Below, piece by piece: positions 1 to 48,033 of a DNA stretch of 48,885 nucleotides. Source of the stretch: a virus; UHGV virus genome UHGV-0858861. One strand, written 5' to 3'. Both the position numbers and the translations under genes were made by a program. Numbering within the stretch: position 1 is the stretch's first letter; the number at the start of each line of letters is the position of its first letter. The notes beneath the pieces were generated by a model. That model did not search any database, was not told the origin of the DNA, and saw only the letters and a program-made list of their open reading frames with translations.

Positions 1-55
1 TGTTGAGCGTGAGTTTAGATTATGGGCTGATTCTCCAAATTGTGATGCATCAAGA
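1..55. repeat. exact 55-bp duplicate of an internal portal-gene segment (matches 3923-3977)
   Basis: Bases 1-55 are identical to 3923-3977 inside the portal ORF; sequence diverges immediately afterwards and there is no ORF context at the window edge. Confidence 0.85.
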
Positions 56-11442: not shown

Positions 11443-11591
11443 GTTTTGATGAGCAAAAACCTATTGATAAGCAAATAATGAGGGCCGCGAGTTCTCTATC
11501 TCAATCATCTCAATCAACACCTATATCCTACTGGCTTTCGCTTCGGTTGAGGCGAATCGTCGCATGGATTGACGTGTTTAATGAGGATTAA
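11409..11591 (+). CDS. -1 frameshift extension of tail assembly chaperone (long form C-terminus)
   Basis: ORF in the -1 frame overlapping the 3' end of 11161-11442; slippage at TTTTTTG would read ...FFALVGFDEQ... to the stop at 11591. Confidence 0.5.
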   Translation: MSKGTEFFALVGFDEQKPIDKQIMRAASSLSQSSQSTPISYWLSLRLRRIVAWIDVFNED

Positions 11592-11596
11592 TACTA

Positions 11597-18720: not shown

Positions 18721-20511
18721 GTGAGTAAATTATTATTTACGATGACTGACGCCGGGCGTCAGGAGTTGGTTAATGCCAACAAAACAGGAACAAATAAAGT
18801 TGAGATTGTTTCTGTTGGTTTAGGTAGTAGATATTATGTCACGTCAACCTCACAAACAAATATAACAGACGAAATAAAACGACTTACCACAATAGGTGGC
18901 AAAGTTGTTTCCCCTGATACAATTCATGTAACGGCGAAGGATGATAGTAAAGATGAGTATGTTGTCCATACAATAGGATTGTATACAAATAAGGGAAGGT
19001 TGTTTGCTGTATACTCGCAAGAACAAGCAATAATAAATAAAGCATCATCTACTATTGCTTTAATATCAAGTGACATAGCAATTAAGACTCTTGATACTAA
19101 AAATATTACATTTGGTGATATTGAGTTTATTAATCCTCCCGCGACCGAAACTGTTGTTGGGGTTGCAAGATTTGCTAATGAACAAGAAATTGATGCAGGT
19201 ACAGATGATTCCCTTGCTGTTTCAGCAAAGCGGCTTAAGCAAGCCATTGTGAAACATGAGCAATCACGTAATCATCCTGATGCAACTTTAACCTCAAAAG
19301 GCTTTGTTCAACTTAGCAGCGCCACCAATAGCACGTCTGAAACGCTTGCTGCGACGCCTAAGGCTGTTAAGGCAGCATATGACCTGGCTAACGCTAAATA
19401 CACCGCACAGGACGCTACCACGGCGCGAAAAGGGATTGTTCAGCTTAGTAGCGCAACTAACAGCGATTCTGAGACGCTGGCAGCAACGCCAAAGGCGGTA
19501 AAGGCAGCATATGACCTTGCTAACGCTAAATACACCGCACAGGACGCTACCACAGCGCGAAAAGGGATTGTTCAGCTCAGTAGCGCCACCAACAGCACGT
19601 CTGAAACACTGGCCGCGACATCAAAAGCTGTAAAGGTGGTAATGGATGAAACGAACAAGAAAGCGCCCCTGAACAGTCCGGCGCTGAGCGGAACACCAAC
19701 AACACCAACGGCGACTAAGGGAACGAATAACACTCAGATCGCAAGCACAGCTTTCGTTATGGCTGCGATTGCTGAACTTGTAGATTCGTCACCTGATGCA
19801 CTGAACACGCTGAACGAACTGGCTGCGGCGCTGGGCAATGACCCGAATTTTGCGACCACCATGACTAACGCGCTTGCGGGTAAGCAACCGAAGGATGCCA
19901 CCCTGACGGCGCTGGCGGAGCTTGCTACATCAGCAGATAAACTCCCATATTTTACAGGGGCAGATCGTGCCGCGTTAACCGCGTTGACAAGTGTTGGACG
20001 TGCCATTCTTGGTAAAACCAGCACTCAGGGCGTTCTTGATTACCTTGGTTTGGGAGAAGGCTCTGCATTACCGGTTGGTGTGCCTGTTCCGTGGCCTTCA
20101 GCCACACCACCGACAGGCTGGCTGAAATGCAATGGTGCGGCTTTTTCTGCTGAACAATACCCGGAACTGGCAAAGGCTTATCCGACAAATAAATTGCCTG
20201 ATTTACGCGGCGAATTCATTCGTGGCTGGGATGACGGGCGCGGAATTGATACCGGACGTGAGATGCTTTCATATCAGGAAGGCACTATCGTATCCGGGTT
20301 TGATGATAATGATACCGGAGATATCAGTTCACTCAGCTCTACACAATACGGATTTGGTGACACTTTAACCTCTAATCAATGGGCGTCCATAAGTGGCAAA
20401 AGGTGGATATTTGATGCATCCAACAAAGGTGCACAAAAATATGACTGGTGGGCTTATGTTTCAGCTCGCCCGCGCAATATTGCATTTAATTACATCGTGA
20501 GGGCCGCCTGA
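18721..20511 (+). CDS. tail fibre protein (constant N-terminal part plus current C-terminal variable cassette)
   Basis: 596-aa ORF; three tandem ~40-aa repeats (...VQLSSATNS.SETLAATPKAVKAAYDLANAKYTAQDATTARKGI...); 3' end lies inside the invertible segment. Confidence 0.8.
   Translation: MSKLLFTMTDAGRQELVNANKTGTNKVEIVSVGLGSRYYVTSTSQTNITDEIKRLTTIGGKVVSPDTIHVTAKDDSKDEYVVHTIGLYTNKGRLFAVYSQEQAIINKASSTIALISSDIAIKTLDTKNITFGDIEFINPPATETVVGVARFANEQEIDAGTDDSLAVSAKRLKQAIVKHEQSRNHPDATLTSKGFVQLSSATNSTSETLAATPKAVKAAYDLANAKYTAQDATTARKGIVQLSSATNSDSETLAATPKAVKAAYDLANAKYTAQDATTARKGIVQLSSATNSTSETLAATSKAVKVVMDETNKKAPLNSPALSGTPTTPTATKGTNNTQIASTAFVMAAIAELVDSSPDALNTLNELAAALGNDPNFATTMTNALAGKQPKDATLTALAELATSADKLPYFTGADRAALTALTSVGRAILGKTSTQGVLDYLGLGEGSALPVGVPVPWPSATPPTGWLKCNGAAFSAEQYPELAKAYPTNKLPDLRGEFIRGWDDGRGIDTGREMLSYQEGTIVSGFDDNDTGDISSLSSTQYGFGDTLTSNQWASISGKRWIFDASNKGAQKYDWWAYVSARPRNIAFNYIVRAA
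19297..19630 (+). repeat. tandem ~120-bp repeats (about 2.7 copies) within the tail fibre gene
   Basis: Near-identical DNA and protein repeats visible at about 19300-19420, 19420-19540 and 19540-19630. Confidence 0.8.
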
Positions 20512-21113
20512 TGAATAAAGCTGTATTAAATAACGAACTCATTGCCATAAAAGCGGGAGATATTACCGTTTATAATTATGATGGTGAAACGAGGGAATAT
20601 ATTTCCACATCAACCGAATATCTTGCTGTCGGCGTCAGTATCCCGGCATGTTCTTGTCTGGGGGCACCTGGTACACATAAAACTGGTTATGCAATCTGCC
20701 GCTCTGTGGATTTAAATTCATGGGAATATGTACCAGACCATCGCGGTGAAATCGTCTATAGCACCGAAACGGGAGATGCCAAAGAAATCACATCTCCGGG
20801 TGATTACCCTGAAAATACAACCACTATCGCCCCGTTAACGCCATACGATAAATGGGATGGTGAGAAATGGGTGACCGATACTGAGGCACAGCATAGCGCC
20901 GCAGTCGAAGCGGCAGAAGCACAGCGCCAGTCGCTGATTGATGCTGCAATGGCTTCCATCAGTCTGATTCAGCTGAAATTACGGGCCGGGCGGAAGCTGA
21001 CGCAGGCAGAAACCACCCGACTTAACGCTGTGCTGGATTACATTGACGCGGTGGAGGCAACAGATACCAGCACCGCGCCTGATGTCATCTGGCCTGAACT
21101 GCCGGAGGCGTAG
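20511..21113 (+). CDS. tail fibre assembly protein (current orientation)
   Basis: 200-aa ORF immediately after the fibre gene, inside the invertible segment. Confidence 0.65.
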   Translation: MNKAVLNNELIAIKAGDITVYNYDGETREYISTSTEYLAVGVSIPACSCLGAPGTHKTGYAICRSVDLNSWEYVPDHRGEIVYSTETGDAKEITSPGDYPENTTTIAPLTPYDKWDGEKWVTDTEAQHSAAVEAAEAQRQSLIDAAMASISLIQLKLRAGRKLTQAETTRLNAVLDYIDAVEATDTSTAPDVIWPELPEA

Positions 21114-21531
21114 GCCAGACGGGATTTGATGTATCAACGCGCATCAGCAAGACCCGGTATTTTTTCCATTCAGACAACGCGGCGGTTTCTTCTGCCGTCG
21201 CAATTTCCGCATCAAAAGCATCCTGTCTCCAGACTATTTCCTTATCAGCCATAGAACGCAATACCGTTCTTTTCTGTTCAGCCTGAATAATCTGTTGTTC
21301 AGCGGAGAGTGGCGGGATATCAATCCACGCAGGATTACCATCTTTGTCAGCCCCCAGCGTTTTACCTTCTGGTGCTACGCCTGTGTAAATTGCCATTGTT
21401 TCATCATCAACATCAACGCCATTTTCAGGCCATGAACCGGCGCTGATATATACCTCTTTTAGTGCTTTCGGATAGAAAGAGCCTTTATAAAATTTATTCA
21501 TTCTTAATACCCCAGCGCGATAAAACAACAA
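21085..21531 (-). CDS. alternative tail fibre assembly protein (opposite orientation)
   Basis: 148-aa minus-strand ORF inside the invertible segment, convergent with the plus-strand tfa. Confidence 0.6.
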   Translation of the reverse strand: MLFYRAGVLRMNKFYKGSFYPKALKEVYISAGSWPENGVDVDDETMAIYTGVAPEGKTLGADKDGNPAWIDIPPLSAEQQIIQAEQKRTVLRSMADKEIVWRQDAFDAEIATAEETAALSEWKKYRVLLMRVDTSNPVWPTPPAVQAR

Positions 21532-21960
21532 TCTTCGGTGCCCTCTCCGGATGGCGACCAGTTCTGAATACTGATATGCGTTCTGCTGGCAATACGCACA
21601 TTCATCGCGGCATTGTAGCCAGATGTTCCACGGTTTCCGGTCGCAAATAAGCCTGCATAGGGAAAAGCAAATGGTAAGGCATATCCAGCATCAGCTCCCT
21701 TTTGTGTTGCCACCGTTCCCCACTGCAACATAAGTTTCACCGGGTTTCCTGTCGTCGCAATGCATGGAATGTAGATGTAGCCATTCCCTGACATCATTGA
21801 CCTGAAGCTGTCTAAATCCAGTAACTTCGAGGCATTATCTGCTCCAACATCTCGTGTTGCGGCGGTCCCTAACTGGAGCGCATTTCGGAAGGCTGATACA
21901 TCAGAAATATCAGCTCCATTAGCCGATTTCTGCATAGCTCCGGAGGCTTTATTTATCGTT
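21504..21960 (-). CDS. alternative tail fibre C-terminal cassette (promoterless, used after inversion)
   Basis: Minus-strand ORF (track 21504-22013) that passes through the right inverted repeat; lacks an own start inside the segment; Gly/Ala-rich fibre-tip-like sequence. Confidence 0.55.
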
Positions 21961-22034
21961 TCTCCCAAACCAACGTTTAAGAAAATGCAGAGATTACGGC
22001 TAACTGGCATCATCCCCGGTTTTTATTCAGGGGG

Positions 22035-22595
22035 ATGCTCATGCTTATTGGCTATGTACGCGTGTCAACAAATGACCAGAACACGGAATTGCAGCGTAAC
22101 GCGCTGGAGTGCGCAGGATGTGAACTGATTTTTGAAGATAAAATCAGCGGAACGAAATCAGCCAGACCGGGATTGAAAAAACTGCTCAGAACGCTATCAG
22201 AAGGAGATACGCTGGTTGTCTGGAAGCTGGACCGAATGGGGCGTTCCCTGATTCATCTTGTTGATTTACTTAACCATTTTTTATCAAACAACATTGAGTT
22301 TATTTCGATTACGGAAGGGATAAAAATTAGCACTTCAATTGGCCGCTTTGCCTACACGATGCTGAGTGCAGTCGCAGAGATGGAGCGGGAAAATATGATT
22401 GAAAGAACGCGTGCAGGATTGGCGGTGGCAAGGGCTAACGGCAGGATAGGAGGACGCCGCTCAAAGCTGGCACCAGAGCAATGGGAACAGATCGGAAGAC
22501 TTATTGCGAATGGTGTTTCACGTAAGCGGATAGCGATTATCTTCGATGTTACCTTATCCACGCTTTACCGCAGGTTTCCGGCTGGGAATCATTGA
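22035..22595 (+). CDS. serine DNA invertase (Gin/Hin/Cin/Pin family)
   Basis: 186-aa ORF with the resolvase/invertase N-terminal catalytic region (IGYVRVSTNDQN...) and C-terminal HTH; adjacent to the inverted repeat; probable start at 22041. Confidence 0.85.
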   Translation: MLMLIGYVRVSTNDQNTELQRNALECAGCELIFEDKISGTKSARPGLKKLLRTLSEGDTLVVWKLDRMGRSLIHLVDLLNHFLSNNIEFISITEGIKISTSIGRFAYTMLSAVAEMERENMIERTRAGLAVARANGRIGGRRSKLAPEQWEQIGRLIANGVSRKRIAIIFDVTLSTLYRRFPAGNH

Positions 22596-25908: not shown

Positions 25909-25913
25909 TGCTC

Positions 25914-26029
25914 ATAGAATTATATAATTATATATTTATATAAAAAGTGCTTTACGGGTGGGAAAAAATTTCCTAAGGTTATACCCGAAACCGAGCGATA
26001 CCCGCCCTGGTTAAACCGGAGATAACCCG
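25914..26029 (+). promoter_or_regulatory. conserved promoter + 5' leader module, copy 1
   Basis: AT-rich palindromic box (TATATAATTATATA), -35-like TTTACG, dyad GGAAA-AAA-TTTCC in spacer, -10-like TAAGGT, then a conserved 50-nt leader with GGAG SD running to the ATG at 26030; near-identical to copies at 35973 and 44044. Confidence 0.55.
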
Positions 26030-26410
26030 ATGAGCATGATTAAAATCCGCAAAAACGCTTTCCTTAAAATTCAAACTATCCTAGCTGGTTCTGTTGGCGT
26101 GATTTGCCGTTCTTCTTCAAGCCGCATCGATGACGGCTACGATGATGAGTACCGTGTGTCCTCGTGCGATGAGGCTTTAACCTGGCTGAAGGAGAATCAG
26201 GAACGTGCCCAGGTATATCTGGAAACAGAGAACGGCAATCAGATGCTGCGTATTAGCGGTCGTTATGGATTTGAAACTACATTCATGGCCTATTTTAATC
26301 AGGCTTACTTTGACAAGGAGCTGGCCTGGTACACTGATCGCATGAGCAAAAGCGAGCCAGCCCCGATTACACCGCCGAACAATAAACCATTTTTATTCCT
26401 CGTTAAGTAA
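26030..26410 (+). CDS. hypothetical protein, first gene behind module copy 1 (candidate anti-defence protein)
   Basis: 126-aa ORF with no recognisable motif; followed by an Aca2/DUF1870-like HTH gene. Confidence 0.4.
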   Translation: MSMIKIRKNAFLKIQTILAGSVGVICRSSSSRIDDGYDDEYRVSSCDEALTWLKENQERAQVYLETENGNQMLRISGRYGFETTFMAYFNQAYFDKELAWYTDRMSKSEPAPITPPNNKPFLFLVK

Positions 26411-28026: not shown

Positions 28027-28053
28027 AAGCGCCCAAATCGGGCGCTTTGTTTT
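28027..28053. terminator. bidirectional terminator between convergent genes
   Basis: Hairpin GCGCCC-AAATC-GGGCGC flanked by A-rich and T-rich runs. Confidence 0.55.
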
Positions 28054-29194
28054 ATGGTTTTGCACCTGCGGCCAGTTTATCCGCAGATATCTTTATCAGT
28101 TCCTGTAGTGTCCTGGCTGGTAGGTTTGCATCCAGAACGCTGAGTATGCTGTTGTGATCCGCCTGGTCGACTACTTTGCCTGTCGGTGGTAGTAGCTTGA
28201 GCTGAGGATTCAGGTCCTCGTCAAAGCTGATAAGTGCTCTGGCGTTCCTGAGCAGATCAAGAAGTAAGGCTGATATCACATTTTCCTGAGTCATTGCTGG
28301 CAGATTTAGCGCCGCTTTGGTTTTCCCTGTTGCCTTGTCAAACTCCTTGATTAGTTCCTTCCTGTAGTTCGGTTCCGTTAATAGCCGATTATGCTCTGTT
28401 GCCGCGCGGATAATCGTTTTTTCCTGGTACAGTCGTTTAGCCAGATCTCGCTCGTACTGTGTTTTTAACACGCTGCTGATAGCGTTAAAGGCTTCAATGT
28501 AGGCCAGCTTGATATCCTTCACGCCTGGACCGTCGATACTTTCCATGAGCAAGGTAAATCCGTCTTTTGTCATGCGATATATTGTTATTTCGCGGTCGCT
28601 TCCTTCCAGCGGTCGTTGTTCTTTAAAGAAGTGACGCGCCGCAGCCGTGCGAGGAATGCGTAACGCATCGATGGCCATAACGATGGAATTGTTTGTGGTG
28701 CTGAATGCCTGAGCAACATCGGCTGAGGTTGTGAGTGGCTCGTTGTTGCACACCTTAATGTAAAACATCGGTTTGGCGTTGAGCGTATCGACAACCTCAC
28801 GAGCATTGTTTGGCGAGACGGTAACGGTCGCGGCCGTTTGCGCGTTCTGGTTGAAATAGCAGTCTTCCAGCCGTTCGAACACATCCCACGCTTGGTTAGT
28901 TTCAAGCATTTTGGCGTGACGTGCAGCCCCGCGTTCTGTCCAGAGAATTAGGGAGCGGGCATTTTTACCAACTAACCCGATTGTTTCGGGTCTGTTCTTG
29001 AACTCGCGTAATTCGTTTTTTTCAATTTTAAAGTAATGCTTTCCGGCTACGAATCGCGTCGTGTTGTTCAGAAAGTTATCAGAAATGTTTTTGATTTTTG
29101 TTCCGTATAACTGCGCCAGAAGTTCACTAGTGATAACGGGGATCTGGTTATGCAGGATAGGCTGTAGGGTGTTAACGGTCGGAAGCGTTTTCAT
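28052..29194 (-). CDS. antirepressor-like regulatory protein (ORF6N-like N-terminus + Rha-like domain)
   Basis: 380-aa ORF; architecture of phage antirepressor/Rha regulators; coupled to a small upstream ORF. Confidence 0.6.
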   Translation of the reverse strand: MKTLPTVNTLQPILHNQIPVITSELLAQLYGTKIKNISDNFLNNTTRFVAGKHYFKIEKNELREFKNRPETIGLVGKNARSLILWTERGAARHAKMLETNQAWDVFERLEDCYFNQNAQTAATVTVSPNNAREVVDTLNAKPMFYIKVCNNEPLTTSADVAQAFSTTNNSIVMAIDALRIPRTAAARHFFKEQRPLEGSDREITIYRMTKDGFTLLMESIDGPGVKDIKLAYIEAFNAISSVLKTQYERDLAKRLYQEKTIIRAATEHNRLLTEPNYRKELIKEFDKATGKTKAALNLPAMTQENVISALLLDLLRNARALISFDEDLNPQLKLLPPTGKVVDQADHNSILSVLDANLPARTLQELIKISADKLAAGAKP

Positions 29195-29382: not shown

Positions 29383-29439
29383 TGTGATGATTCCCTTAAA
29401 GGTTAAGGATACTCACCACCGTCAGGTTCCAATCATTGG

Positions 29440-29570
29440 GTGGTGAGACGTGCAGGGTTGGAACTACCGGACACAATGACGAACCGGCGAGTCTTACGAC
29501 TCCCCCGCACGCCCCACCATAATTTGGGGGTAGCAGTGCTTTACGCATAAAAAAACCGCTAACGCGGTAT
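29440..29570 (-). ncRNA. candidate c4-like antisense RNA region of an immI-like locus
   Basis: Minus-strand leader carries two hairpin-loop copies of GAUUGGAACC (29424-29433 and 29590-29599) flanking a segment with the complementary GGUAGUUCCAACC (29455-29470), plus a minus-strand terminator hairpin near 29550-29570. Confidence 0.3.
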
Positions 29571-29680
29571 GCGCCATTGTGTCTACGGGGTTCCAATCCC
29601 GGCCGTAGATTTTGCTACGGCTCGGAAAGTGTCCACCAATGGCGCATTCATGTCAATACGGCGGGATTTTAACAGACTAA

Positions 29681-30418: not shown

Positions 30419-30744
30419 CGTGCTGATCGGATTCGCGGTCCTTTCAGCATAACGTCGTTGTACTAATACAACCACGCAAGCACAAACAGCAACTACATTC
30501 TTACCCAACTGAGGTGAATAGTCCACTATTCATATAAAAAAATTTAGCTCATTAGCTCATGCAAAATGAAGGTTTTTAACTTATTTACGTGTAATCTTAT
30601 GTAATAAAAGCGTTTTTTATTCCTTCATTATGAAGGGTATGACGTGTAATATGGCTTGGGGCCTTTCCGCCGATTCGCACCCGGGCACTGACTTTCAGGA
30701 AAGGATTATCCACTTGCCGTACCACGCAGGCACAAACAGCGTGC

Positions 30745-30927
30745 TTGCTCTCGCGTCATTTTCGTCGGTGGGGATGCCGTGAAACGGCCTGTAAGGGCCA
30801 CACAATGAAAAAATACTACATGTGTATTTTTATCGTTGTTACTGGAGCTTTGTTTACGCCACATGGGGAGGGTTGGAAGATTACTGATAACGCTCTGAAT
30901 GTGACGATAAACATTAGCAGCAAGTAG
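30745..30927 (+). CDS. small hydrophobic peptide (about 40 aa from the ATG at 30805)
   Basis: MKKYYMCIFIVVTGALFT... with one predicted TM helix, SD AAGGG upstream, strong terminator immediately downstream. Confidence 0.3.
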   Translation: MLSRHFRRWGCRETACKGHTMKKYYMCIFIVVTGALFTPHGEGWKITDNALNVTINISSK

Positions 30928-30932
30928 CGATT

Positions 30933-30956
30933 AGGCCCCTTCGGGGGCCTTTTTTA
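30933..30956 (+). terminator. strong rho-independent terminator
   Basis: Hairpin AGGCCCC-TTCG-GGGGCCT followed by TTTTTT. Confidence 0.7.
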
Positions 30957-31177: not shown

Positions 31178-31426
31178 TTACTTCTGGTTGTATTGAGCCT
31201 TGAGTAACTCAAAAGATTTTGTCAGCACTTCTTTCAATGACATATCCATTGAGCTGGCGAACGTTTTGTACTCGCGTTTAAATTCAGGGTCGACGTTAAA
31301 CGCCATTTGTGCCCCACCTGATTTGGTTCTGGTTGGCGTTTCAGTCGGGTCGAAAACCTGCGGTTGTTCGATCGATGGCGGTACGCCTTTGCTGTTCTTC
31401 TTTGGTGGTTTTGATGGTGCGGCCAT
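31178..31426 (-). CDS. parG: ParG-like partition protein (ribbon-helix-helix)
   Basis: 82-aa ORF directly downstream of the ParA-type ATPase; C-terminus resembles the ParG RHH region; unstructured basic N-terminus. Confidence 0.5.
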   Translation of the reverse strand: MAAPSKPPKKNSKGVPPSIEQPQVFDPTETPTRTKSGGAQMAFNVDPEFKREYKTFASSMDMSLKEVLTKSFELLKAQYNQK

Positions 31427-31469: not shown

Positions 31470-32138
31470 TTACGCGGCAGTAGTCAGAGCCTCAAGCTGG
31501 TTGATAATCCCCTGAATAACGTCGTCTGCCTTTTTGCGTGGCGCAACGTATGAGCACTCAATGAGGCTTAAGCCCTTATCCTGAGCTTTGCTCAGAGCTG
31601 GCTTGTGGGGAATGTACTTATCAACAACAAAGTATGGCGTATTAGCCAGGTACTCTTGGGCTTCAATATAGTCAGCTTCGTTTTCAGCCGCGCCGGAAAA
31701 CACCATGCAAATTTTCTTGATTGGTACACCCTTTTTAACGATGCCGTGAGCAGTGTTAACGGTGGTTTCTAGGTCATCGGTAGAGAATCTGGTTGGCAAA
31801 ATAACCATATCCAGAAATTCAGAGAGCTTCGGTACTGATTCAGATGCGTAGGCACCGCCATCGACGATAACCAGGTCGTATACTTCTGATTCGATGATTT
31901 TCTGGACTTGTGATGGTGTGCCGCACGGCTGCGCCGCGATTGCTGGTTCGATATTGTTGGCCATTCTGCGTTGTACCCAACGCGTTACCGTTCCGTTAAG
32001 CACATCCATATCGATCAGGCATACATTCCAGCCAGCCTTTGCATAAGCAACTGCTAAAGCACGGGCAATTGTTGATTTGGTTACGCCGCCTTTTCCGTTG
32101 AAAATACCTACAGAGATAGTCATTTGTCGAGACTCCAT
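31470..32138 (-). CDS. parA: ParA/ParF-type partition ATPase
   Basis: 222-aa ORF with deviant Walker A (GKGGVTKST). Confidence 0.8.
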   Translation of the reverse strand: MESRQMTISVGIFNGKGGVTKSTIARALAVAYAKAGWNVCLIDMDVLNGTVTRWVQRRMANNIEPAIAAQPCGTPSQVQKIIESEVYDLVIVDGGAYASESVPKLSEFLDMVILPTRFSTDDLETTVNTAHGIVKKGVPIKKICMVFSGAAENEADYIEAQEYLANTPYFVVDKYIPHKPALSKAQDKGLSLIECSYVAPRKKADDVIQGIINQLEALTTAA

Positions 32139-32270
32139 GTGTTTGGTTATATAATTCTATAAATCTATATTTATAGAACGAGGTAAGCATAACCAACTTT
32201 TTGGCGGATGAAAAGCGTTTTATATAATTATATAAATCTATAATCATATAAGCGGGCGTTAGCCCGCTTG
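32139..32270. promoter_or_regulatory. AT-rich palindromic iterons upstream of parF (candidate centromere/operator)
   Basis: Repeated TATAAATCTATA and TATATAATTATATA motifs at 32157-32185 and 32225-32250; related boxes at 31436-31468 and upstream of the conserved promoter modules. Confidence 0.45.
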
Positions 32271-32273
32271 CAG

Positions 32274-32648
32274 TCAGAGGTCAGCTATCGTTGATATCAG
32301 TTGATTTGCTAGCTGTCGCTGTTTACGTGAGAGGGTTAGAGCAGCTTCTGAGCGGTCGCTAAGAGGGGTGTTTTCATCAAGAATCATGAGGCATACAGAA
32401 ATAATAGCCCTGTTATATGCCATCAATGGCTGGCACAGCTTCGATACCGCTGGCACATCGTATTGTAAGGCCGTTTTGAGGCAGACTTTTTGTTCTGATG
32501 CCAGATGAAGGATAGATTCTATCCAGTCGATATCTTTCTCATTATCAATGATTTGGCATAACATACACTCAATCGCTATGTTCAACGCTTGGATTTCGAT
32601 TCCAGCAGTGATCAGAGTTTCGTTTTTATTGGCTGTATGTAATTCCAT
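32274..32648 (-). CDS. hypothetical protein downstream of the repressor gene
   Basis: 124-aa ORF; an operator-like dyad (32684-32698) lies about 40 bp upstream of its start. Confidence 0.4.
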   Translation of the reverse strand: MELHTANKNETLITAGIEIQALNIAIECMLCQIIDNEKDIDWIESILHLASEQKVCLKTALQYDVPAVSKLCQPLMAYNRAIISVCLMILDENTPLSDRSEAALTLSRKQRQLANQLISTIADL

Positions 32649-35544: not shown

Positions 35545-35922
35545 GTGAGACGCGATCTGGATAGCTTGTTTGAGCTATGGGCGCTGTGGGTGCGCAATGG
35601 CTGCAACGCCCGTAGCGGTTTCGCGTCGATGTTAGAAATGATGATGGTTACGCGTTGCCAGTTTACCGGAGGGGGCGGCGCACCAAATGACTCACTGGAA
35701 ACCAGTATCGAGGGAGCGGTGACGGCCCTCACGGTAGTTGATGAGACTGCGGCGCTGGTTGTCCGAATTGAATACGGGGCGTGGGAGATTCGGGGCCTCG
35801 ACATAAATGCACCGCATATTGATAAAGCCCACGCCCTTTCTCTTAGTCTCAGACAGTATCGCCGGAAGCTGGCAAAAGCCAGGGCGTATGTTGTCGACTA
35901 TTTGAAAAAGCGAAGAGAGTAA
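35545..35922 (+). CDS. hypothetical protein (possible regulator, function unassigned)
   Basis: 125-aa ORF, last gene before module copy 2. Confidence 0.3.
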   Translation: MRRDLDSLFELWALWVRNGCNARSGFASMLEMMMVTRCQFTGGGGAPNDSLETSIEGAVTALTVVDETAALVVRIEYGAWEIRGLDINAPHIDKAHALSLSLRQYRRKLAKARAYVVDYLKKRRE

Positions 35923-35972: not shown

Positions 35973-36091
35973 AAATCTATAAATATATAATTATAGATTT
36001 ATATAAAAAGTGCTTTACAGGTGGGAAAAAATTTCCTAAGGTTATACCCGAAACCGAGCGATACCCGCCCTGGTTAAACCGGAGAAATCTG
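35973..36091 (+). promoter_or_regulatory. conserved promoter + 5' leader module, copy 2
   Basis: Near-identical to 25914-26029 and 44044-44162 from the AT-rich box through TTTACA, GGAAAAAATTTCC and the leader to the SD; ATG at 36092. Confidence 0.55.
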
Positions 36092-37159
36092 ATGAATAAA
36101 CAAGTAATTATTTCTGACTGGATCAACAACCCTAACAGCCTGTTAAGCACTGATACTGGCTACCTATTACGCCATGTTAATGGTCGTATGGTCAAAAGCG
36201 ATGAGCACGAAACCTTTTTCTTTGTTGAAGATGATGGGCGTATCTATGAGGATGGTTACTCTTATGAAGCCCAAACTGGTTGTATCCCTGCGGAGCTGGT
36301 GGACGTAACAGAAGATCTGCGCAAAGCATGGCTTGAACAGCAGCAGCGCGGAGATGATTACGTAAACACCTATCAGGAACGCCAGAACGCGCGTCTTGCC
36401 CGATATATTGCTCGTGCAGAAAAAGCCAGAAAAGAAGGTGCGGTAGCGCATAAGCGAGCGCATGACCTGTTGGATGTGATCCCGTTAGGCCAGCCGATTT
36501 TAGTTGACCATTATAGCGCGAAAGGCCATCGCCGCCGTTTGTCTAAAGCTGATGCGTTATTAAGAAAAGCGTTTGTTGAATGCGAAAGTAAAGCATCACA
36601 CTACGAGAGCAAAGCCGCAGGTGTTGGTCGTAATGGAATTTCGTCTGATGATCCTGATGCGCTATTTAAGTTGCTTCGTAAGCTGCAAGGCTGCATGAAG
36701 TCACACGTCAAAATGAAGGCCGCAAATAAGGCCATTCGCAAATACAAAAAAGACCAATTACAGCAGCTTTCTGCATTAATCGATCTCAGGTTTACAGAAA
36801 GCGAAGCCAAAGAGTTACTGGTCGGAGATTTCTGTGGGCGCATCGGATTCCCTTCATACGTACTGAGCAACAATAACGCCGAGATCAAACGACTACAGAG
36901 CCGTATTAAGGAGCTTGAATCGGTCAAGTCTGTAACAGGAGCACAGCGCGAAGAATACGACGACTTTTCTATGGAGATAGATCCAGAGGATAACCGCATC
37001 CTGTTTTATTTCCCTGGCAAACCAGAGGCAAACATTCGTTCGCTGCTTAAATCACGCGCCTTTAAGTGGAGTCCAACCCGTAATGCATGGGTTCGCAAGA
37101 TTACTCCAAATGCCCTGGCTGATGCCCGATATCTGAAAGAATCGCTATTGAAAGCCTGA
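36092..37159 (+). CDS. hypothetical protein with DUF3560-like C-terminus (candidate early/anti-defence protein)
   Basis: 355-aa ORF directly behind module copy 2; C-terminal motif ILFYFPGKPEANIRSLLKSRAFKWSPTRNAWVRK. Confidence 0.4.
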   Translation: MNKQVIISDWINNPNSLLSTDTGYLLRHVNGRMVKSDEHETFFFVEDDGRIYEDGYSYEAQTGCIPAELVDVTEDLRKAWLEQQQRGDDYVNTYQERQNARLARYIARAEKARKEGAVAHKRAHDLLDVIPLGQPILVDHYSAKGHRRRLSKADALLRKAFVECESKASHYESKAAGVGRNGISSDDPDALFKLLRKLQGCMKSHVKMKAANKAIRKYKKDQLQQLSALIDLRFTESEAKELLVGDFCGRIGFPSYVLSNNNAEIKRLQSRIKELESVKSVTGAQREEYDDFSMEIDPEDNRILFYFPGKPEANIRSLLKSRAFKWSPTRNAWVRKITPNALADARYLKESLLKA

Positions 37160-37215
37160 CAGTAAGCCTACGGCGGGATGTCTCCCGCCGTATATAGAAT
37201 TATATATTTATATAA

Positions 37216-37518
37216 ATGTATAAGGACGCCTCGACAATGAAACGCAAAATTATTAACCCCCAAGATGTGATTAATTTCCTGACCGATCACCCATGTTCAA
37301 AAGTGGACGTAATCGCGGAGCACATTGGTGTGTCGCAGAACTCTATGCGTTGCAGACTGAGAAGCATGGTTGCCGAAGGACAGATAACAACCAGGAAAAT
37401 AAATGGTTGCCTGTACTACTCCGCTAAACCGGAATTGCCATTTGGCATGAATTCTAACTCCATGTTGTTTAACACCTTATTAGCCAAAGTTAAGCCGTTG
37501 AGAGGGGCTGTGGCATGA
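37216..37518 (+). CDS. winged-helix DNA-binding protein
   Basis: ORF (probable start 37236) with wHTH-like segment (VDVIAEHIGVSQNSMRCRLRSMVAEGQI); AT-rich box upstream at 37190-37215. Confidence 0.4.
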   Translation: MYKDASTMKRKIINPQDVINFLTDHPCSKVDVIAEHIGVSQNSMRCRLRSMVAEGQITTRKINGCLYYSAKPELPFGMNSNSMLFNTLLAKVKPLRGAVA

Positions 37519-38571: not shown

Positions 38572-38916
38572 ATGAGCAAATCACTTAACGCACGCTGCAT
38601 CCGTCGCTGGACCGTCGAATTTAAAGGCCGCTGCGACTCAAAATATAGCCCGTATTGGCGTAAGCGCGACCTGCGGGGGTATATCCGTGAGGTTGCACTG
38701 AACACCGCGGATTGCATGGTCGAGCGTATGGCCGAGGATAATGCGATGGTAGATTTTCAGGGGGCTAATCGAGGATGGTCGCCGGAGTTCTCGGCCTGGT
38801 ACCACGAACGCCGTGAACAGTATCTCAAAGAGGCGCGCGACCATCTGAACGAAGACGCCACCAATGACGAGGTTGACGAGGAGATTCAGAACGAGCTGGA
38901 GGCCTGGAATGACTAA
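38572..38916 (+). CDS. hypothetical protein
   Basis: 114-aa ORF. Confidence 0.3.
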   Translation: MSKSLNARCIRRWTVEFKGRCDSKYSPYWRKRDLRGYIREVALNTADCMVERMAEDNAMVDFQGANRGWSPEFSAWYHERREQYLKEARDHLNEDATNDEVDEEIQNELEAWND

Positions 38917-39592
38917 CAGCACAGCAATTAACTATCAGGCACTGCGTGAGGCGGCAGAAAAAGCACTACATGGTGAATGGGGTCACGAGGCAGGGGCAAT
39001 CTGGAATACCTGTGATAGCGGCTATGTTCAGCACATGGCAGCGGTCGAGGCTGGCGATGATGTTAGCGATGAAGAGCATATGAGCAATATGCGTTTTATC
39101 ACGCTCGCCACGCCAACTGTTGTTCTTGGATTGCTTGATGAGCTTTCTGAAGCTAAAGCTGCCGAAGAGAACGAGTCCAGTTGTGCTAACAGCGTTATCG
39201 ACATCGCTATCAACTGGCAGATGCGAGCCAAAGATGCAGAAGCCAAGCTGGAAGCCGCAGAGAAGCGCAACGCAAAATTACAAAGCGAGAATGCATACAT
39301 CCGCAACCGGTTCAAAGAACTGGACCTATTAATCGGGAAAAACATTCTGGTCATGCAGGCTGCCATTATCGAATGGCAATCGACTGGCGACGCTAAAAGC
39401 GGACTGGCATGGATTTATAACACACTGTTTGGCCCTGGCGAATTGCCGGACGAATCTGAGAAAGATGCTCAGGCCTACTTTAATCGCAAATATGCACCGA
39501 TTGACGAAAAGCTTATGGCGCTTCACAAGTGGTTTTGGGAACAAAGTGAAGCCGAGCGCGCCGCTGGCATTCGCATCAAAGGAGGTGAGTAA
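38864..39592 (+). CDS. Ead/Ea22-like protein
   Basis: ORF (probable start 38912) with TPTVVLGLLDEL motif and coiled-coil segment. Confidence 0.4.
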   Translation: MTRLTRRFRTSWRPGMTNSTAINYQALREAAEKALHGEWGHEAGAIWNTCDSGYVQHMAAVEAGDDVSDEEHMSNMRFITLATPTVVLGLLDELSEAKAAEENESSCANSVIDIAINWQMRAKDAEAKLEAAEKRNAKLQSENAYIRNRFKELDLLIGKNILVMQAAIIEWQSTGDAKSGLAWIYNTLFGPGELPDESEKDAQAYFNRKYAPIDEKLMALHKWFWEQSEAERAAGIRIKGGE

Positions 39593-42909: not shown

Positions 42910-43078
42910 TATATATTTCTATAATTATATAAATATATAGTTACAACATTCTATGCGCTTTTCTCATGAGCGCACGCATCAACCATGTTTGTCTGATATG
43001 CCGCCGCGCCCAAAAATCCTGAATTTATTGGCTGGGATTTTCGTGCGCGGCGCCACACCAGACAAACAGATCAAATAT

Positions 43079-43462: not shown

Positions 43463-44050
43463 ATGGAGGCAATTGCATTGTTTAATCTGATTTATGCAGA
43501 TCCCCCCTGGGAATACAAAGACAAGTGTAAGGATGGGAATCGTGGCGCTGGTTTTAAGTATCCAACGATGAAAGCTGAGGAGATTGCTCGTATTCCTGTC
43601 TGGCAGCTTGCTAATCCTGAATCGTGTTTGTTGGCCATGTGGTGGGTTCCGACTCAGCCAGAAGAAGCGTTGCTGGTGGTGAAAGCATGGGGATTCAGGC
43701 TGATGACCATGAAGGGCTTCACATGGAACAAATGTGGTAGCCGACAACCAGATAAGCTGGTGATGGGGATGGGGCATATGACTCGTGCAAACAGTGAAGA
43801 TTGCTTGTTTGCAGTGAAAGGCAAACTACCGACACGTCTTGATGCGGGGATCATTCAGTCGTTTACATCGCCTCGTCTGGAGCATTCTCGGAAGCCTGAT
43901 GTGGTCCGTGACAAGCTGGTAAGGCTGTTAGGTGATGTTCCTCGTATTGAGCTGTTTGCTCGCGGTGATTTACCTGATGGCTGGCATGGCTGGGGCAACC
44001 AGTGCAATGGAGGTATCCAATTGCATGATGCTCTCTGGCAAGTGTCATAG
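43463..44050 (+). CDS. MT-A70-family DNA N6-adenine methyltransferase
   Basis: 195-aa ORF with the catalytic DPPW motif (IYADPPWEY). Confidence 0.75.
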   Translation: MEAIALFNLIYADPPWEYKDKCKDGNRGAGFKYPTMKAEEIARIPVWQLANPESCLLAMWWVPTQPEEALLVVKAWGFRLMTMKGFTWNKCGSRQPDKLVMGMGHMTRANSEDCLFAVKGKLPTRLDAGIIQSFTSPRLEHSRKPDVVRDKLVRLLGDVPRIELFARGDLPDGWHGWGNQCNGGIQLHDALWQVS

Positions 44051-44162
44051 AATTATATAATTATATATTTATATAAAAAGTGCTTTACAGGTGGGAAAAA
44101 ATTTCCTAAGGTTATACCCGGAACCGAGCGATACCCGCCCTGGTTAAACCGGAGATAACCCG
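44044..44162 (+). promoter_or_regulatory. conserved promoter + 5' leader module, copy 3
   Basis: Near-identical to copies 1 and 2 (one substitution in the leader); ATG at 44163. Confidence 0.55.
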
Positions 44163-44432
44163 ATGAAAGTACAAGACCGTGAAGTAGTAAAAAACCTCCT
44201 GCAATACCTGACCTCAAAAAATCTGACTGGCAGCGTTGAGTTCCGTGAAGCGTTAAAACATTTCAACGTCACTACGGTTTATCGTTGGGAAAACAAACAT
44301 TCTGAAAGACCGTATGTGGTGGATGTTTTTGCGCCTGATATTGAGTGCGGTTTTGAGCGCCATTCATTCAAAAAGAAACATTCCGCTGATGTTTTTTGTG
44401 AGGTTGTATGTGCGGCAGGAGATGATGAGTGA
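44163..44432 (+). CDS. hypothetical protein, first gene behind module copy 3
   Basis: 89-aa ORF, no recognisable motif. Confidence 0.35.
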   Translation: MKVQDREVVKNLLQYLTSKNLTGSVEFREALKHFNVTTVYRWENKHSERPYVVDVFAPDIECGFERHSFKKKHSADVFCEVVCAAGDDE

Positions 44433-46036: not shown

Positions 46037-46660
46037 ATGACAAAACATCTTAATGTGGTTTCTTTACCACTTTCTGTGTTGATTGGTTATGAAAAGAACG
46101 CTCGCACACACTCCGTGGAGCAGGTAGATCAGATTGTTGCCAGCATACAGGAGTACGGATGGACTAATCCGATCCTGATAGACGAGAACAACGTTGTAAT
46201 TGCTGGTCATGGTCGAATTGCTGCGGCCACTCAGTTGGGGATGGATGACGTTCCCTGCATTGTTCTGGAAGGGCTAACGGAGAATCAGAAGAAGGCATAT
46301 CGTCTGGCCGACAACCGTATTCCGCTGAATGCTGGTTGGGATGAAGAGTTGTTAAGCGCGGAGCTTGCAGATCTTGCGGCCGATGATTTTGCTCTGGACT
46401 CAATTGGTTTTACTCAGCGCGAACTGGATAACTTATTGAGTGCGGCGGTCTACGATGACACAGAGGGTATGGATATCCCATTTGAGAAGGATGAGGCCAA
46501 ATCAGGCGTAAAAGTTCAGTACCTGTCATTTGGAGGTCATAAAATCCCGGCAACGGATGAGGAAGCGGATCGTTTTGACTGCGCGGTGTCTCGTTATGTT
46601 GATGATAATGGCAGCTATATCGGATTTGTATCCGCATTGCTGGCTGGGGAGGTGTGCTGA
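46037..46660 (+). CDS. ParB-like nuclease-domain protein (paralogue of 301-891)
   Basis: 207-aa ORF sharing the ParB N-terminal-like core (NPILIDENNVVIAGHGRIAAA...QKKAYRLADN...NAGWD) with the ORF at 301. Confidence 0.65.
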   Translation: MTKHLNVVSLPLSVLIGYEKNARTHSVEQVDQIVASIQEYGWTNPILIDENNVVIAGHGRIAAATQLGMDDVPCIVLEGLTENQKKAYRLADNRIPLNAGWDEELLSAELADLAADDFALDSIGFTQRELDNLLSAAVYDDTEGMDIPFEKDEAKSGVKVQYLSFGGHKIPATDEEADRFDCAVSRYVDDNGSYIGFVSALLAGEVC

Positions 46661-48033
46661 TGCTTCACCTCAATTACGACATAACGCACCTACGCGGCGC
46701 GGAATATAACCCGCGTTTTATCGGTGAGGATGATCTTGCGAGGCTGGCAGAAAGCGTCAGGGAGCTGGGGCTTGTGAAGCCATTGATAGTGCGCGGCGAT
46801 TTGCTGGTGGCGGGACACCAAAGGACGAAGGCGCTACGTAAGTTGGGAATAACGCGTGCTGCGGTGTATGTGTTGCCCTGTGAAACGACGGTATACGACG
46901 AAGTACGGTTTAACCAACTGCATAACGGAACGGATTTTGATAGCGGAGATGAGCGTTGCAGGGTGTCCGGTCTGGAAGATAAGCATGGTTTTGTTCAGGT
47001 ATCGGCAAGCCAGATTTCAGGCAATATGCGCGCGAAAATGGCATATGTTCGAAAGAACATAGCGGAACTGGTTATCAAGTATGGTCCGTGGGGTGGTTGT
47101 GTTGCTACGCAGTCTGGCGAGGTTATTCACTGTGCTCAGTATGCATTAGCAGCGAAGATGACGCGCACACCGCTAACGGTGTTTGTGATCCCTGATGTTG
47201 AGAAGGAAAAATACCAAAGTTATCTGAATAAAACTTATGGTGTATTTGAGTATTCTCATCTGGAGAAAACAACATACATCCAGACGTATGCGCAGCTTAT
47301 GCGGTTGCGTAATGGTGGCAGCCTGAAATCAAACCTGTATGAGTCGTTGATCCTCCCGATCATTGCCAAGACGCCAAGAGGAATTGATTTTGGTTCGGGG
47401 CAGGGAGACTACGCGCGAATGCTCAGGGCAAAGGGATATAACCTGCATGATCTCGAGCTTTTCCGCCGTAAGGGCGCTGGAAACACTCTGGATAGGACCG
47501 CAACAAACCGGATGATTGATACGCTGGTGGACGACTTAAAAACGCGAGGGCGTTACGACTACGTGATTTGCGATAGCGTTTTGAACTCGGTCGATAGTGT
47601 CGAGGCTGAATGGTCTGTTCTGACGGTTCTGAAAGGCCTGTGTAAAGCTGGTGGGTCAATATTCTTTTCTGGTCGTAGCCGTGGAGAGCTGGAAACAGTC
47701 CTGAAGCAAACACAAGCGGCGAGTTCCAAAAGCCGGCTTTATTTTATTGATCATAACGGTTTTACCGCGTTGTACCGGAAGGGGCACTGGTTTTACCAGA
47801 AGTTTCACTCTGATGATGAAGTGAAGCAGTTGTGTCGTGTACATGGTTTCAGGATTAAGCGGTCAATATTCAACTGTAAGAGCTGGTATTTGCACGTCAT
47901 TAACGATGATTCCCTTAGTTGGGCGAGTCTGGAGAAAGCTGTTCGTTTTGAGTTTGAGTTGCCGTTGCCTGGTGGTTCAACAATCGGACGATCTGATGAT
48001 GTGCTGGCGGCTTTCCGGCCGTTGATTAAGTAG
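46654..48033 (+). CDS. fusion protein: ParB N-terminal-like domain + class I SAM-dependent methyltransferase domain
   Basis: 459-aa ORF; N-terminal ParB-like segment (PLIVRGDLLVAGHQRTKALRKLG) and C-terminal Rossmann SAM motif (GIDFGSGQGDY); no DPPY/NPPY-type motif seen. Confidence 0.6.
   Translation: MLMLHLNYDITHLRGAEYNPRFIGEDDLARLAESVRELGLVKPLIVRGDLLVAGHQRTKALRKLGITRAAVYVLPCETTVYDEVRFNQLHNGTDFDSGDERCRVSGLEDKHGFVQVSASQISGNMRAKMAYVRKNIAELVIKYGPWGGCVATQSGEVIHCAQYALAAKMTRTPLTVFVIPDVEKEKYQSYLNKTYGVFEYSHLEKTTYIQTYAQLMRLRNGGSLKSNLYESLILPIIAKTPRGIDFGSGQGDYARMLRAKGYNLHDLELFRRKGAGNTLDRTATNRMIDTLVDDLKTRGRYDYVICDSVLNSVDSVEAEWSVLTVLKGLCKAGGSIFFSGRSRGELETVLKQTQAASSKSRLYFIDHNGFTALYRKGHWFYQKFHSDDEVKQLCRVHGFRIKRSIFNCKSWYLHVINDDSLSWASLEKAVRFEFELPLPGGSTIGRSDDVLAAFRPLIK

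What the first reader, a model, noticed from the sequence alone, without database searches (positions are those of the whole stretch)
36092..37159. 355-aa first gene behind module copy 2, with a DUF3560-like C-terminus
Placement directly behind the conserved module implies co-expression with the putative anti-defence operon. The C-terminal motif (FYFPGKPE...LKSRAFKWSPTRNAWVRK) resembles a domain I associate with mobile-element conflict proteins, but that is from memory only.
Basis: inference. Interest (0 to 1): 0.5.

Follow-up and report, generated by a model that had tools for sequence, protein, structure and literature searches.

The report
Plasmid-type DUF3560 protein in a phage-plasmid
This is a real, well-conserved gene for a DUF3560-family protein, a very common but functionally unexplained module that conjugative plasmids place among the first genes to enter a new host, here borrowed by a 49-kb phage-plasmid and placed behind one of three identical promoter cassettes.

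Summary
The 355-aa ORF at 36092-37159 (+) is real and under purifying selection. Pfam DUF3560 matches strongly (E 7.7e-31), but over residues 94-216, not the C-terminus. The quoted C-terminal motif lies in a separate α/β domain that is still part of the same 264-residue conserved core.

- **Family:** the core has 9,090 representative clusters. [quoted passage not shown]
- **Relatives:** four sampled relatives with the same N-terminal domain sit in conjugative-element establishment regions (SSB-PsiB-PsiA, ArdB/KlcA, KorA/B, relaxase).
- **Host element:** a phage-plasmid (IncFII RepA, ParA, toxin-antitoxin), about 99% identical to Yersinia phages vB_YpM_39/41/44 and to E. coli and Klebsiella "plasmids".
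- **Regulation:** the gene is the first behind copy 2 of a 122-nt promoter-plus-leader cassette that evolves in concert with two other copies.
- **Functional site:** a loop next to invariant His/Ser switched GHHSE→DHYSA about ten separate times.

Best reading: an entry or establishment factor that acts on DNA. The function is untested. This is a new member of a known, uncharacterised family.

The parts
36092..37159 (+). Complete CDS of the 355-aa DUF3560-family protein (stop TGA at 37157-37159)
   Evidence: PHROG 6744 matches full length at E 7e-233; core HMM scores 384.9 bits; AF2 model has pLDDT 91.5 and pTM 0.82
36092..36364 (+). N-terminal domain, aa 1-91: acidic (pI 4.3), five short strands plus a helix, found only in an Enterobacterales subfamily
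36371..36739 (+). Stretch matched by Pfam PF12083 DUF3560 (aa 94-216): a long basic helical hairpin, the GISSDDPDA loop and the next helix
   Evidence: E 7.7e-31; helices 93-128 and 143-177
36488..36538 (+). Hairpin-tip loop, aa 133-149: GQPILVDHYSAKGHRRR. Carries invariant Q134, P135, L137, H140, S142 and R147, and the variant D139/Y141/A143 state of the family's GHHSE motif
   Evidence: alignments A2/A3; covariation counts are 250 G..E against 13 D..A/Y; about 10 independent origins
36623..36937 (+). Helical bundle, aa 178-282, with conserved loops GISSDDPDA, MKAxN..IR, DFCGR.GF and NNNA. It starts the portion that also occurs without the hairpin in other proteins
   Evidence: 39% identity (E 2e-23) of aa 174-337 to the C-terminal end of E. 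faecium WP_060811960; tblastn hits to aa ~173-352 alone
36938..37156 (+). Conserved basic and aromatic residues: R302, K310, R316, K320, W326, R330, W333, R335
35975..36096 (+). Promoter-plus-leader cassette, copy 2. Contains a palindromic AT box (35973-36003), -35 TTTACA (36014-36019), a 17-nt spacer holding GGAAA-aaa-TTTCC, -10 TAAGGT (36037-36042), a ~50-nt conserved C-rich leader, GGAG (36081-36084) and the ATG
   Evidence: The same cassette precedes the orthologous three genes in a Salmonella relative, with genome-specific substitutions shared by all three copies. Promoter function is inferred, not shown
37170..37216 (+). Element after the stop codon: a GC-rich hairpin (37170-37191, no U-tract) followed by an exact AT box (37194-37216), 20 nt before the next gene's ATG at 37237
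   Evidence: Conserved in Salmonella with the stem kept and the loop changed, while the box and leader are nearly identical
25912..26033 (+). Cassette copy 1, preceded by an intrinsic-terminator-like hairpin. It heads a 126-aa gene of unknown function (26030-26410)
44045..44166 (+). Cassette copy 3. It heads an 89-aa gene of unknown function (44163-44432), upstream of a ParB_N gene and a ParB_N-methyltransferase gene

Best explanation
The gene encodes a stand-alone version of a module that conjugative plasmids and ICEs deploy in the first minutes after their DNA enters a new cell. The phage-plasmid acquired it from that plasmid gene pool.

Shown:
- The protein has three parts: a lineage-specific acidic N-domain, a basic all-helical scaffold (a long hairpin plus a bundle) whose loops carry invariant polar residues, and a basic C-terminal α/β domain.
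- The last two parts form one conserved core, which is recurrently fused to DNA-directed domains of polyvalent proteins.
- Same-architecture relatives lie in establishment regions of conjugative elements.

Inferred mechanism: the core binds the element's own DNA through the basic helical scaffold and the double-wing-like C-terminal domain. The likely target is a structural feature of newly entered or replicating DNA rather than a specific sequence. The hairpin-tip loop (invariant His140/Ser142 with an obligatory neighbouring acidic residue) then carries out a specific chemical or binding step that helps the DNA survive or become established.

Expression comes from a sigma-70-type promoter-plus-leader cassette shared with two other transcription units, which is probably controlled through a palindromic AT box. 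Whether that cassette fires on entry, in the plasmid state or late in the lytic cycle is unknown.
For: - Family size and conservation: 9,090 clusters, 20 invariant columns.
- Fusions among 51 extended members of the best 150: ArdC-N in 14, MPTase-PolyVal in 5, LPD25 in 5, LPD29 in 4, ddrB-ParB in 2, plus methyltransferase and beta-clamp-like domains. The C-half ends an ArdA+ArdC-N+M78+LPD25+YodL protein beside topoisomerase III on a conjugative Enterococcus plasmid.
- Neighbourhoods of relatives with the same N-domain: SSB-ParB-PsiB-PsiA-...-DUF3560-SLT; Antirestrict PF03230, LPD29, T4CP and TrwC; ParA-KorB, LPD29 and KorA; DndB, LPD29, SSB and NikA.
- Neighbourhoods of stand-alone cores: KorA-kleA-RadC and SSB-C5 methylase-SprT-T4CP.
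- Literature: DUF3560 is leading-region family 28 (1,913 members, FDR 0, uncharacterised) in PMC11541004. Polyvalent-protein logic and the role of ArdC-N as an ssDNA-binding header come from PMC5512222.
- Functional site: the coupled GHHSE<->DHYSA switch arose about 10 times with almost no intermediates.
- Purifying selection in the N-domain, hairpin and C-domain, dN/dS 0.18-0.28.
Against: - No experiment exists for any family member.
- No known anti-defence, nuclease, primase or other catalytic fold was detected.
- This element enters cells as injected double-stranded phage DNA and has no relaxase or oriT (MOB-suite: non-mobilizable), so the conjugative entry logic may not transfer to it.
- In the phage the gene sits after a Ref nuclease, a DUF1064 resolvase-like gene and a possible late regulator, and before the lysis genes. 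That placement would also fit a late or a recombination-related role.
- Very high conservation across phyla is unusual for inhibitors of fast-evolving defence systems.
Confidence: 0.45

Rival explanations
1. It is a replication or recombination accessory protein, a housekeeping-type function. For example, it could help priming, complementary-strand synthesis, recircularisation or fork handling of the element's DNA, with no role in conflict with host defences.
For: - The gene follows a Ref-family RecA-dependent nuclease and a DUF1064 resolvase-like gene.
- Relatives lie next to ssb, a putative primase and radC.
- One relative is fused to a DNA polymerase III beta-clamp-like domain (P0129).
- PHROG 19458, labelled 'primase', matches aa 173-351.
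Against: - No Toprim, AEP or other primase domain is found in this protein or in the 'primase'-labelled phage protein.
- The element has its own IncFII RepA.
- The commonest fusion partners are antirestriction-associated or polyvalent-protein domains.
- The boundary between 'establishment' and 'replication accessory' is blurred, so this rival overlaps the best explanation.
Confidence: 0.2
2. It is an enzyme whose substrate is not DNA, such as a hydrolase or transferase acting on a nucleotide signal or on a host protein. In that reading the helical core forms the active site.
For: - Invariant His, Ser, Arg, Asp and Asn residues lie in loops.
- An acidic residue is obligatorily kept beside H140/S142 at one of two positions.
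- Some databases name relatives 'hydrolase' or 'HD superfamily hydrolase', as quoted in the PMC11541004 supplement.
Against: - The fusion partners are overwhelmingly DNA-binding or DNA-modifying domains.
Confidence: 0.12
3. It is a transcription factor of the element. A MotA-like DNA-binding domain would recognise phage promoters, for instance the AT box or the cassette itself.
For: - The gene lies directly behind a regulated-looking cassette and ahead of the lysis genes.
Against: - The same core is embedded in polyvalent proteins and in leading regions of unrelated plasmids across phyla. That does not fit a sequence-specific regulator of one phage.
- Foldseek does not support the MotA match.
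- A small winged-helix gene immediately downstream, preceded by its own AT box, is a simpler candidate regulator.
Confidence: 0.08
4. It is a defence or exclusion function that the resident phage-plasmid uses against other incoming elements.
For: Prophage accessory regions between the late regulator and the lysis genes often carry such cargo (general knowledge). The element also carries toxin-antitoxin and methyltransferase genes.
Against: - No PADLOC match.
- Family context is in regions expressed on entry into a new host, and in proteins thought to travel with the DNA (PMC5512222).
Confidence: 0.05

Closest known systems
Pfam PF12083 (DUF3560), the 'YdbA'-type leading-region family (family 28 of Samuel et al. 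2024, PMC11541004)
   Same: It matches well above the curated threshold (107 vs 27 bits) and carries the full 264-residue core with all 20 invariant positions. Relatives with the same architecture lie in F-like leading regions.
   Different: This copy is in a non-mobilizable phage-plasmid with no oriT or relaxase. It carries an extra 91-aa N-domain restricted to Enterobacterales and shows the minority DHYSA state of the hairpin-tip motif. F plasmid itself has no member of this core.
Polyvalent proteins of conjugative elements and phages (Iyer et al. 2017, PMC5512222)
   Same: The whole core, or its C-terminal half, is a recurrent module of such proteins, alongside ArdC-N, MPTase-PolyVal, ddrB-ParB, LPD25, LPD29, ArdA and YodL.
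   Different: The window protein is a solo version: one core plus a small N-domain. It has no processing peptidase and no second effector domain. The core is not one of the Pfam LPD models.
ArdC antirestriction protein (pSa/R388)
   Same: Relatives replace ArdC's metalloprotease with this core behind the same ssDNA-binding ArdC-N domain (P0077, P0086, P0095). PromA-type plasmids even annotate the stand-alone core as 'ArdC'.
   Different: This protein has no ArdC-N domain (Pfam finds none; hhalign 0.3%) and no HExxH metalloprotease (none in the sequence, none in Pfam). The 'ArdC' label on relatives is a misnomer.
T4 MotA C-terminal 'double-wing' DNA-binding domain (PDB 5jlt, 6k4y, 1kaf)
   Different: Sequence identity is 7-8%. 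Foldseek gives E 2.2. There is no MotA N-terminal domain and no evidence of sequence-specific binding.

Membership tests
Pfam DUF3560 (PF12083) | Score above the curated gathering threshold | tested here: met
   107.2 bits against a 27.2 cut-off, aa 94-216, covering model positions 2-124 of 124
DUF3560 full conserved core (264 positions: hairpin, bundle and C-terminal α/β domain) | End-to-end match to the core profile, with the invariant residues present | tested here: met
   384.9 bits to the core HMM. All 20 invariant columns are present. The near-invariant G139, H141 and E143 are replaced by the recurrent alternative D, Y and A
Polyvalent protein (Iyer et al. 2017) | Several functionally disparate effector domains in one large polypeptide | tested here: not met
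   355 aa with one conserved core and a 91-aa N-domain of unknown fold. It is a solo version of a polyvalent-protein module
Polyvalent protein (Iyer et al. 2017) | Delivered into the recipient cell together with the DNA (via virion or T4SS) | not testable with these tools
   Needs virion proteomics or a translocation assay
ArdC antirestriction protein | N-terminal ArdC-N ssDNA-binding domain (PF08401) | tested here: not met
   No Pfam hit. Profile-profile comparison of the N-domain with ArdC-N from fused relatives gives probability 0.3%
ArdC antirestriction protein | C-terminal zinc metalloprotease domain (HExxH) | tested here: not met
   No peptidase family in Pfam, and no HExxH in the translated sequence
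MotA C-terminal double-wing DNA-binding fold | Significant structural similarity by independent methods | tested here: inconclusive
DNA primase (label of PHROG 19458) | Toprim/DnaG, AEP/PrimPol or other primase catalytic domain | tested here: not met
   None found in this protein or in the 'primase'-labelled Clostridium phage Maintenon protein that shares the C-half
Plasmid leading-region gene (Samuel et al. 2024) | Located within the first genes to enter from oriT, in the leading orientation | tested here: not met
   The element is typed non-mobilizable, with no relaxase or oriT annotated. The feature is met by relatives
Anti-defence protein (generic) | Demonstrated or homology-inferred inhibition of a defence system | not testable with these tools
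   No anti-defence library was available. The Samuel et al. table shows no hit of the DUF3560 family to their anti-CRISPR or anti-restriction reference sets

The most novel reading that the evidence does not exclude
The DUF3560 core would be a previously unrecognised, near-universal 'DNA entry' factor: a DNA-structure-binding protein with a catalytic or ligand-binding hairpin-tip site that exists in two interconvertible states (GHHSE and DHYSA). Conjugative plasmids, ICEs, polyvalent proteins and phage-plasmids would all use it alike. In this phage-plasmid it would belong to an establishment regulon, driven by three concertedly evolving promoter-plus-leader cassettes under a plasmid-style global regulator acting at AT boxes that are also found at the parA promoter. 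That would be a phage counterpart of the burst of leading-region gene expression seen when a plasmid enters a new cell.
Probability: 0.25. Interest if true: 0.7.

Novelty: new member of a known kind. Interest (0 to 1): 0.4.

Why it matters
DUF3560 is one of the largest gene families in plasmid leading regions (family 28, about 1,900 members in Samuel et al. 2024). Here it has over 9,000 sequence clusters, yet no function has been assigned.

This phage-plasmid copy offers a compact and genetically tractable setting to test that function. The element forms plaques, lysogenises as a plasmid, and infects E. coli-like hosts and attenuated Y. pestis.

The analysis gives concrete handles for such work:
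- domain boundaries;
- a candidate DNA-binding domain;
- a candidate functional loop with a natural two-state switch;
- a defined promoter cassette.

It also corrects misleading labels on relatives ('ArdC', 'primase', 'HD hydrolase'). If the protein proves to be an establishment or anti-defence factor, it would bear on plasmid and phage host range.

Tried and rejected
1. Cryptic ArdC-N in the N-domain. MAFFT aligned the two regions, but hhalign gives probability 0.3%. Rejected.
4. Solved relatives by sequence. None was found with the single sequence or with the family profile.
5. Primase. No primase domain was found. The PHROG label looks circular, since the phage annotation derives from HHpred against PHROGs.
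6. HD hydrolase, a name carried by some database relatives. No search supports it.
7. Defence system. No PADLOC match.
8. NCBIfam. No match.
9. F plasmid as a reference context. Its leading region has no member of this core, so IncF literature applies only at the level of the Pfam family.
10. LPD29 partner in the window. None found.
11. CI repressor control of the cassette. The cI-cro operators are CCACA..TGTGG palindromes unrelated to the cassette.
12. Known RNA family in the conserved leader. No Rfam match there.
13. Yersinia 'plasmid-like' phage HQ103. It is an unrelated 32-kb P2-like phage.

Full report
**Observation.** A GGAG sits 8 nt upstream. It is not a chance ORF.
- PHROG 6744 matches it end to end.
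- 647 homologues were scored in the word-indexed search.
- A family profile finds 9,090 representative clusters at E<=0.001 and 2,966 at E<=1e-30 in an exhaustive scan.
- dN/dS against a 67%-identical Salmonella orthologue is 0.14 overall. It is 0.28 in the N-domain, 0.18 in the hairpin and 0.21 in the C-domain. The bundle segment returned no valid dS, so no ratio was obtained there, and dS is close to saturation.

Pfam DUF3560 matches strongly (E 7.7e-31, 107 bits against a 27-bit cut-off), but over residues 94-216. The quoted C-terminal motif (aa 305-336) lies outside that model, and no Pfam family covers it. It still belongs to the same evolutionary unit, because the 264-position core profile, which includes that motif, matches in one stretch in 146 of the 150 best representatives.

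**The element.** The window is about 99% identical to Yersinia pestis myophages vB_YpM_39, 41 and 44, where the genes listed for this region are hypothetical apart from hin, a HigB2-type toxin and a tRNA. It is also nearly identical to 47-49-kb circular records deposited as plasmids of E. coli and Klebsiella aerogenes, and more distantly related (about 70% protein identity) to one from Salmonella. Alongside tail, lysis and CI-type repressor genes, the element carries an IncFII-family RepA, a ParA-family ATPase and a RelE/ParE-type toxin-antitoxin pair. It is therefore a phage-plasmid. Its plasmid replication is accounted for without the DUF3560 gene.

**Anatomy of the protein.** An AlphaFold2 model built on 118 sequences is confident (pLDDT 91.5, pTM 0.82). 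It shows four parts.
- *N-domain (aa 1-91):* small and acidic (pI 4.3), made of five short strands and a helix.
- *Helical hairpin (helices 93-128 and 143-177):* long and basic (pI 10.0). Its tip loop carries the invariant GQP.L..H.S....R.
- *Helical bundle (to aa 282):* basic, with the conserved loops GISSDDPDA, MKAxN..IR, DFCGR.GF and NNNA.

**Family, fusions and neighbourhoods.** About two-thirds of the best 150 representatives are stand-alone cores of 255-290 aa. The 51 longer ones show what the core travels with:
- ArdC-N in 14;
- the polyvalent-protein metallopeptidase in 5;
- LPD25 in 5;
- LPD29 in 4;
- ddrB-ParB in 2;
- methyltransferase, beta-clamp-like and other domains in single cases.

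The portion from aa 174 to 337 also occurs without the hairpin. It is 39% identical (E 2e-23) to the C-terminal end of a 1,306-aa Enterococcus faecium conjugative-plasmid protein. That protein reads ArdA + ArdC-N + M78 peptidase + LPD25 + YodL + DUF4316 + this module, and it lies next to topoisomerase III. These are the hallmark domains of the polyvalent proteins described by Iyer et al. 2017, which are proposed to enter the recipient with the DNA (PMC5512222).

The 91-aa N-domain is restricted to an Enterobacterales subfamily and never occurs with another partner. It is not a hidden ArdC-N.

The four more distant members of this subfamily that I sampled (52-56% and 43% identity) are all in conjugative-element establishment regions, not in phages:
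- SSB - ParB-like - PsiB - PsiA - ... - DUF3560 - SLT transglycosylase;
- an ArdB/KlcA-type antirestriction gene, LPD29, the coupling protein and a TrwC relaxase;
- ParA-KorB, LPD29 and KorA;
- DndB, LPD29, SSB and NikA.

Stand-alone cores lie in KorA-kleA-RadC clusters of PromA/IncP-like plasmids and in an SSB - C5-methylase - SprT - T4CP cluster.

In the literature, DUF3560 is family 28 of the 100 largest leading-region families: 1,913 members, FDR 0, listed as uncharacterised, with no hit to anti-CRISPR or anti-restriction reference sets (PMC11541004 supplement). It is induced on pO157 by ciprofloxacin (PMC11125564). It is also a frequent target of Klebsiella CRISPR spacers (PMC6965323). 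The phage-plasmid copy is best read as an import from this plasmid gene pool.

**A candidate functional site.** At the hairpin tip the family consensus is G-H-H-S-E, but the window protein reads D139-H-Y-S-A143. Among the 265 fetched members with residues at both positions:
- 250 have G...E;
- 13 have D...A or D...Y, nearly always together with H141Y;
- only two are mixed;
- none has both acidic residues.

The D-type members are scattered. Outside the query's own close group, each has a G-type protein as its nearest relative, at up to 87% identity. So the coupled three-residue switch arose about ten times with almost no surviving intermediates. An acidic side chain beside the invariant His140 and Ser142 is evidently required, at one of two alternative positions. 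That pattern marks a catalytic, metal-binding, ligand-binding or precise interaction site. I cannot say which.

**The promoter cassette and the 'co-expression' claim.** The 122-nt repeat is real and occurs three times. Each copy contains:
- a palindromic AT-rich box centred on TATAATTATA;
- a -35 TTTACA, a 17-nt spacer and a -10 TAAGGT;
- a conserved C-rich leader of about 50 nt;
- GGAG and then the ATG of a different gene.

In the Salmonella relative the same cassette precedes the same three orthologous genes. The three copies within each genome share that genome's substitutions, for example TAAGGT against TATGGT and ACCCGCC against AGTCGCC. This is concerted evolution of a functional unit. 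It stays about 90% identical while synonymous sites of the adjacent gene are saturated.

Directly after the DUF3560 stop codon lie a GC-rich hairpin without a U-tract and another AT box. Both are conserved in Salmonella, with the stem kept and the loop changed. The same AT box flanks the parA promoter. The gene is therefore a discrete unit bracketed by conserved regulatory elements, and probably co-regulated with two other units.

These are three separate transcription units, not one operon. Promoter activity and timing are inferred, not shown. And the first genes behind copies 1 and 3 have no recognisable function. The 'anti-defence operon' label remains unverified.

The position of copy 2, just after a 125-aa gene in the place where a late regulator would sit and ahead of accessory and lysis genes, would also fit a late promoter.

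**Mechanism and rivals.** My preferred explanation (confidence 0.45) is an entry or establishment factor that binds the element's DNA through the basic helical scaffold and the C-terminal double-wing-like domain, and that uses the hairpin-tip site for a specific chemical or binding step. The context, fusions, charge and conservation are shown. DNA binding and the biological role are inferred. The rivals are:
- a replication or recombination accessory (0.2), which overlaps the main idea;
- a non-DNA enzyme (0.12);
- a phage transcription factor (0.08);
- a defence function (0.05).

The only such label ('primase', PHROG 19458) is unsupported by any primase domain.

**Comparison with known families and novelty.**
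- It is a member of Pfam DUF3560. All tested defining features are met.
- It is not ArdC. Both of ArdC's defining domains are absent, and the 'ArdC' name on PromA relatives is a misnomer.
- It is not itself a polyvalent protein. It is a solo version of one of their modules.
- Its relation to the MotA double-wing fold is inconclusive.

RefSeq already labels identical proteins 'DUF3560 domain-containing protein', so this is a new member of a known but uncharacterised kind. What this analysis adds is the three-part dissection, the census of fusion partners and neighbourhoods, the two-state loop motif and the cassette context. Interest is moderate. Nothing here would greatly surprise a specialist, but it makes the function of a very large unexplained family experimentally approachable in a simple phage-plasmid system.

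Noticed in passing
window 25912-26033, 35975-36096, 44045-44166; L014 near 3743-3873, 11553-11685, 18950-19082: A 122-nt promoter-plus-leader cassette occurs three times, in front of three different genes. The same three placements occur in a diverged Salmonella relative. Copies within a genome share genome-specific substitutions (concerted evolution), and the cassette stays about 90% identical where synonymous sites are saturated.
   Followed up: partly
window 32138-32244 (- strand), 37194-37216, 42911-42938, plus the three cassette copies: A palindromic AT-rich box (core TATAATTATA) recurs at six loci, including both sides of the promoter of the ParA-family gene (31470-32138, -). It may be an operator for a plasmid-style global regulator. 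The candidate binder is unknown. Possibilities are the 93-aa winged-helix gene at 37237-37518, the 82-aa gene at 31178-31426 and the 124-aa gene at 32274-32648.
   Followed up: partly
window 29436-29524 (-), 29549-29621 (-), 30657-30955 (+), 28052-29194 (-): Rfam matches above the gathering score to the P1/P7-type C4 antisense RNA, to isrK and to ryfA. They lie next to an ORF6N + Rha-domain antirepressor-like gene, which suggests a P1-like ImmI antirepressor control region.
   Followed up: no
window 1-55 and 3923-3977: An exact 55-nt direct repeat. In the near-identical phage vB_YpM_41 the sequence occurs only once, at the internal position (4037-4091). The copy at the very start of the window therefore looks like an assembly-end artefact (k-mer length 55).
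   Followed up: yes
window 35545-35922 (+): A 125-aa gene is the last of the rightward early string and lies directly upstream of cassette copy 2, where a late regulator such as Q would sit. It gives only a weak, sub-threshold full-length match to the NCBIfam PA0613 family (E 2.5e-4).
   Followed up: no
window 38864-39592 (+): A 242-aa protein has an Ead/Ea22-like N-terminal part (Pfam E 1.7e-13) and a C-terminal part matching the PADLOC DpdH model (E 3.9e-37).
   Followed up: no
window 43463-44050, 46037-46660, 46654-48033 (+): An MT-A70 methyltransferase lies just upstream of cassette copy 3. A ParB_N protein and a ParB_N-methyltransferase fusion lie downstream of it. These are orphan-methylase and ParB-type genes of the kind common in plasmid leading regions and polyvalent proteins.
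   Followed up: no
window 19296-19691 and 13654-13938: Three tandem 132-nt repeats (100/86/61% identity) lie inside the 596-aa ORF at 18721-20511. A 45-nt motif recurs every 120 nt inside the 930-aa ORF at 11597-14389. Both indicate repeated protein segments in genes of the structural-gene region.
   Followed up: no
window 21085-22595: A recombinase-family ORF (22035-22595), whose counterpart in vB_YpM_41 is annotated as Hin-type DNA invertase, lies next to oppositely oriented ORFs that correspond by position to tail-fibre genes in the related records. This suggests an invertible host-range segment.
   Followed up: no
L003 (LC623923.1, 3942-4748) and L002 (ON453900.1, 24359-25282): There are annotation errors in public records. 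The stand-alone DUF3560 core on a PromA-type plasmid is labelled 'ArdC protein' although it has neither ArdC domain. A Clostridium phage protein sharing only the C-terminal half is labelled 'primase' although no primase domain is detectable.
   Followed up: partly
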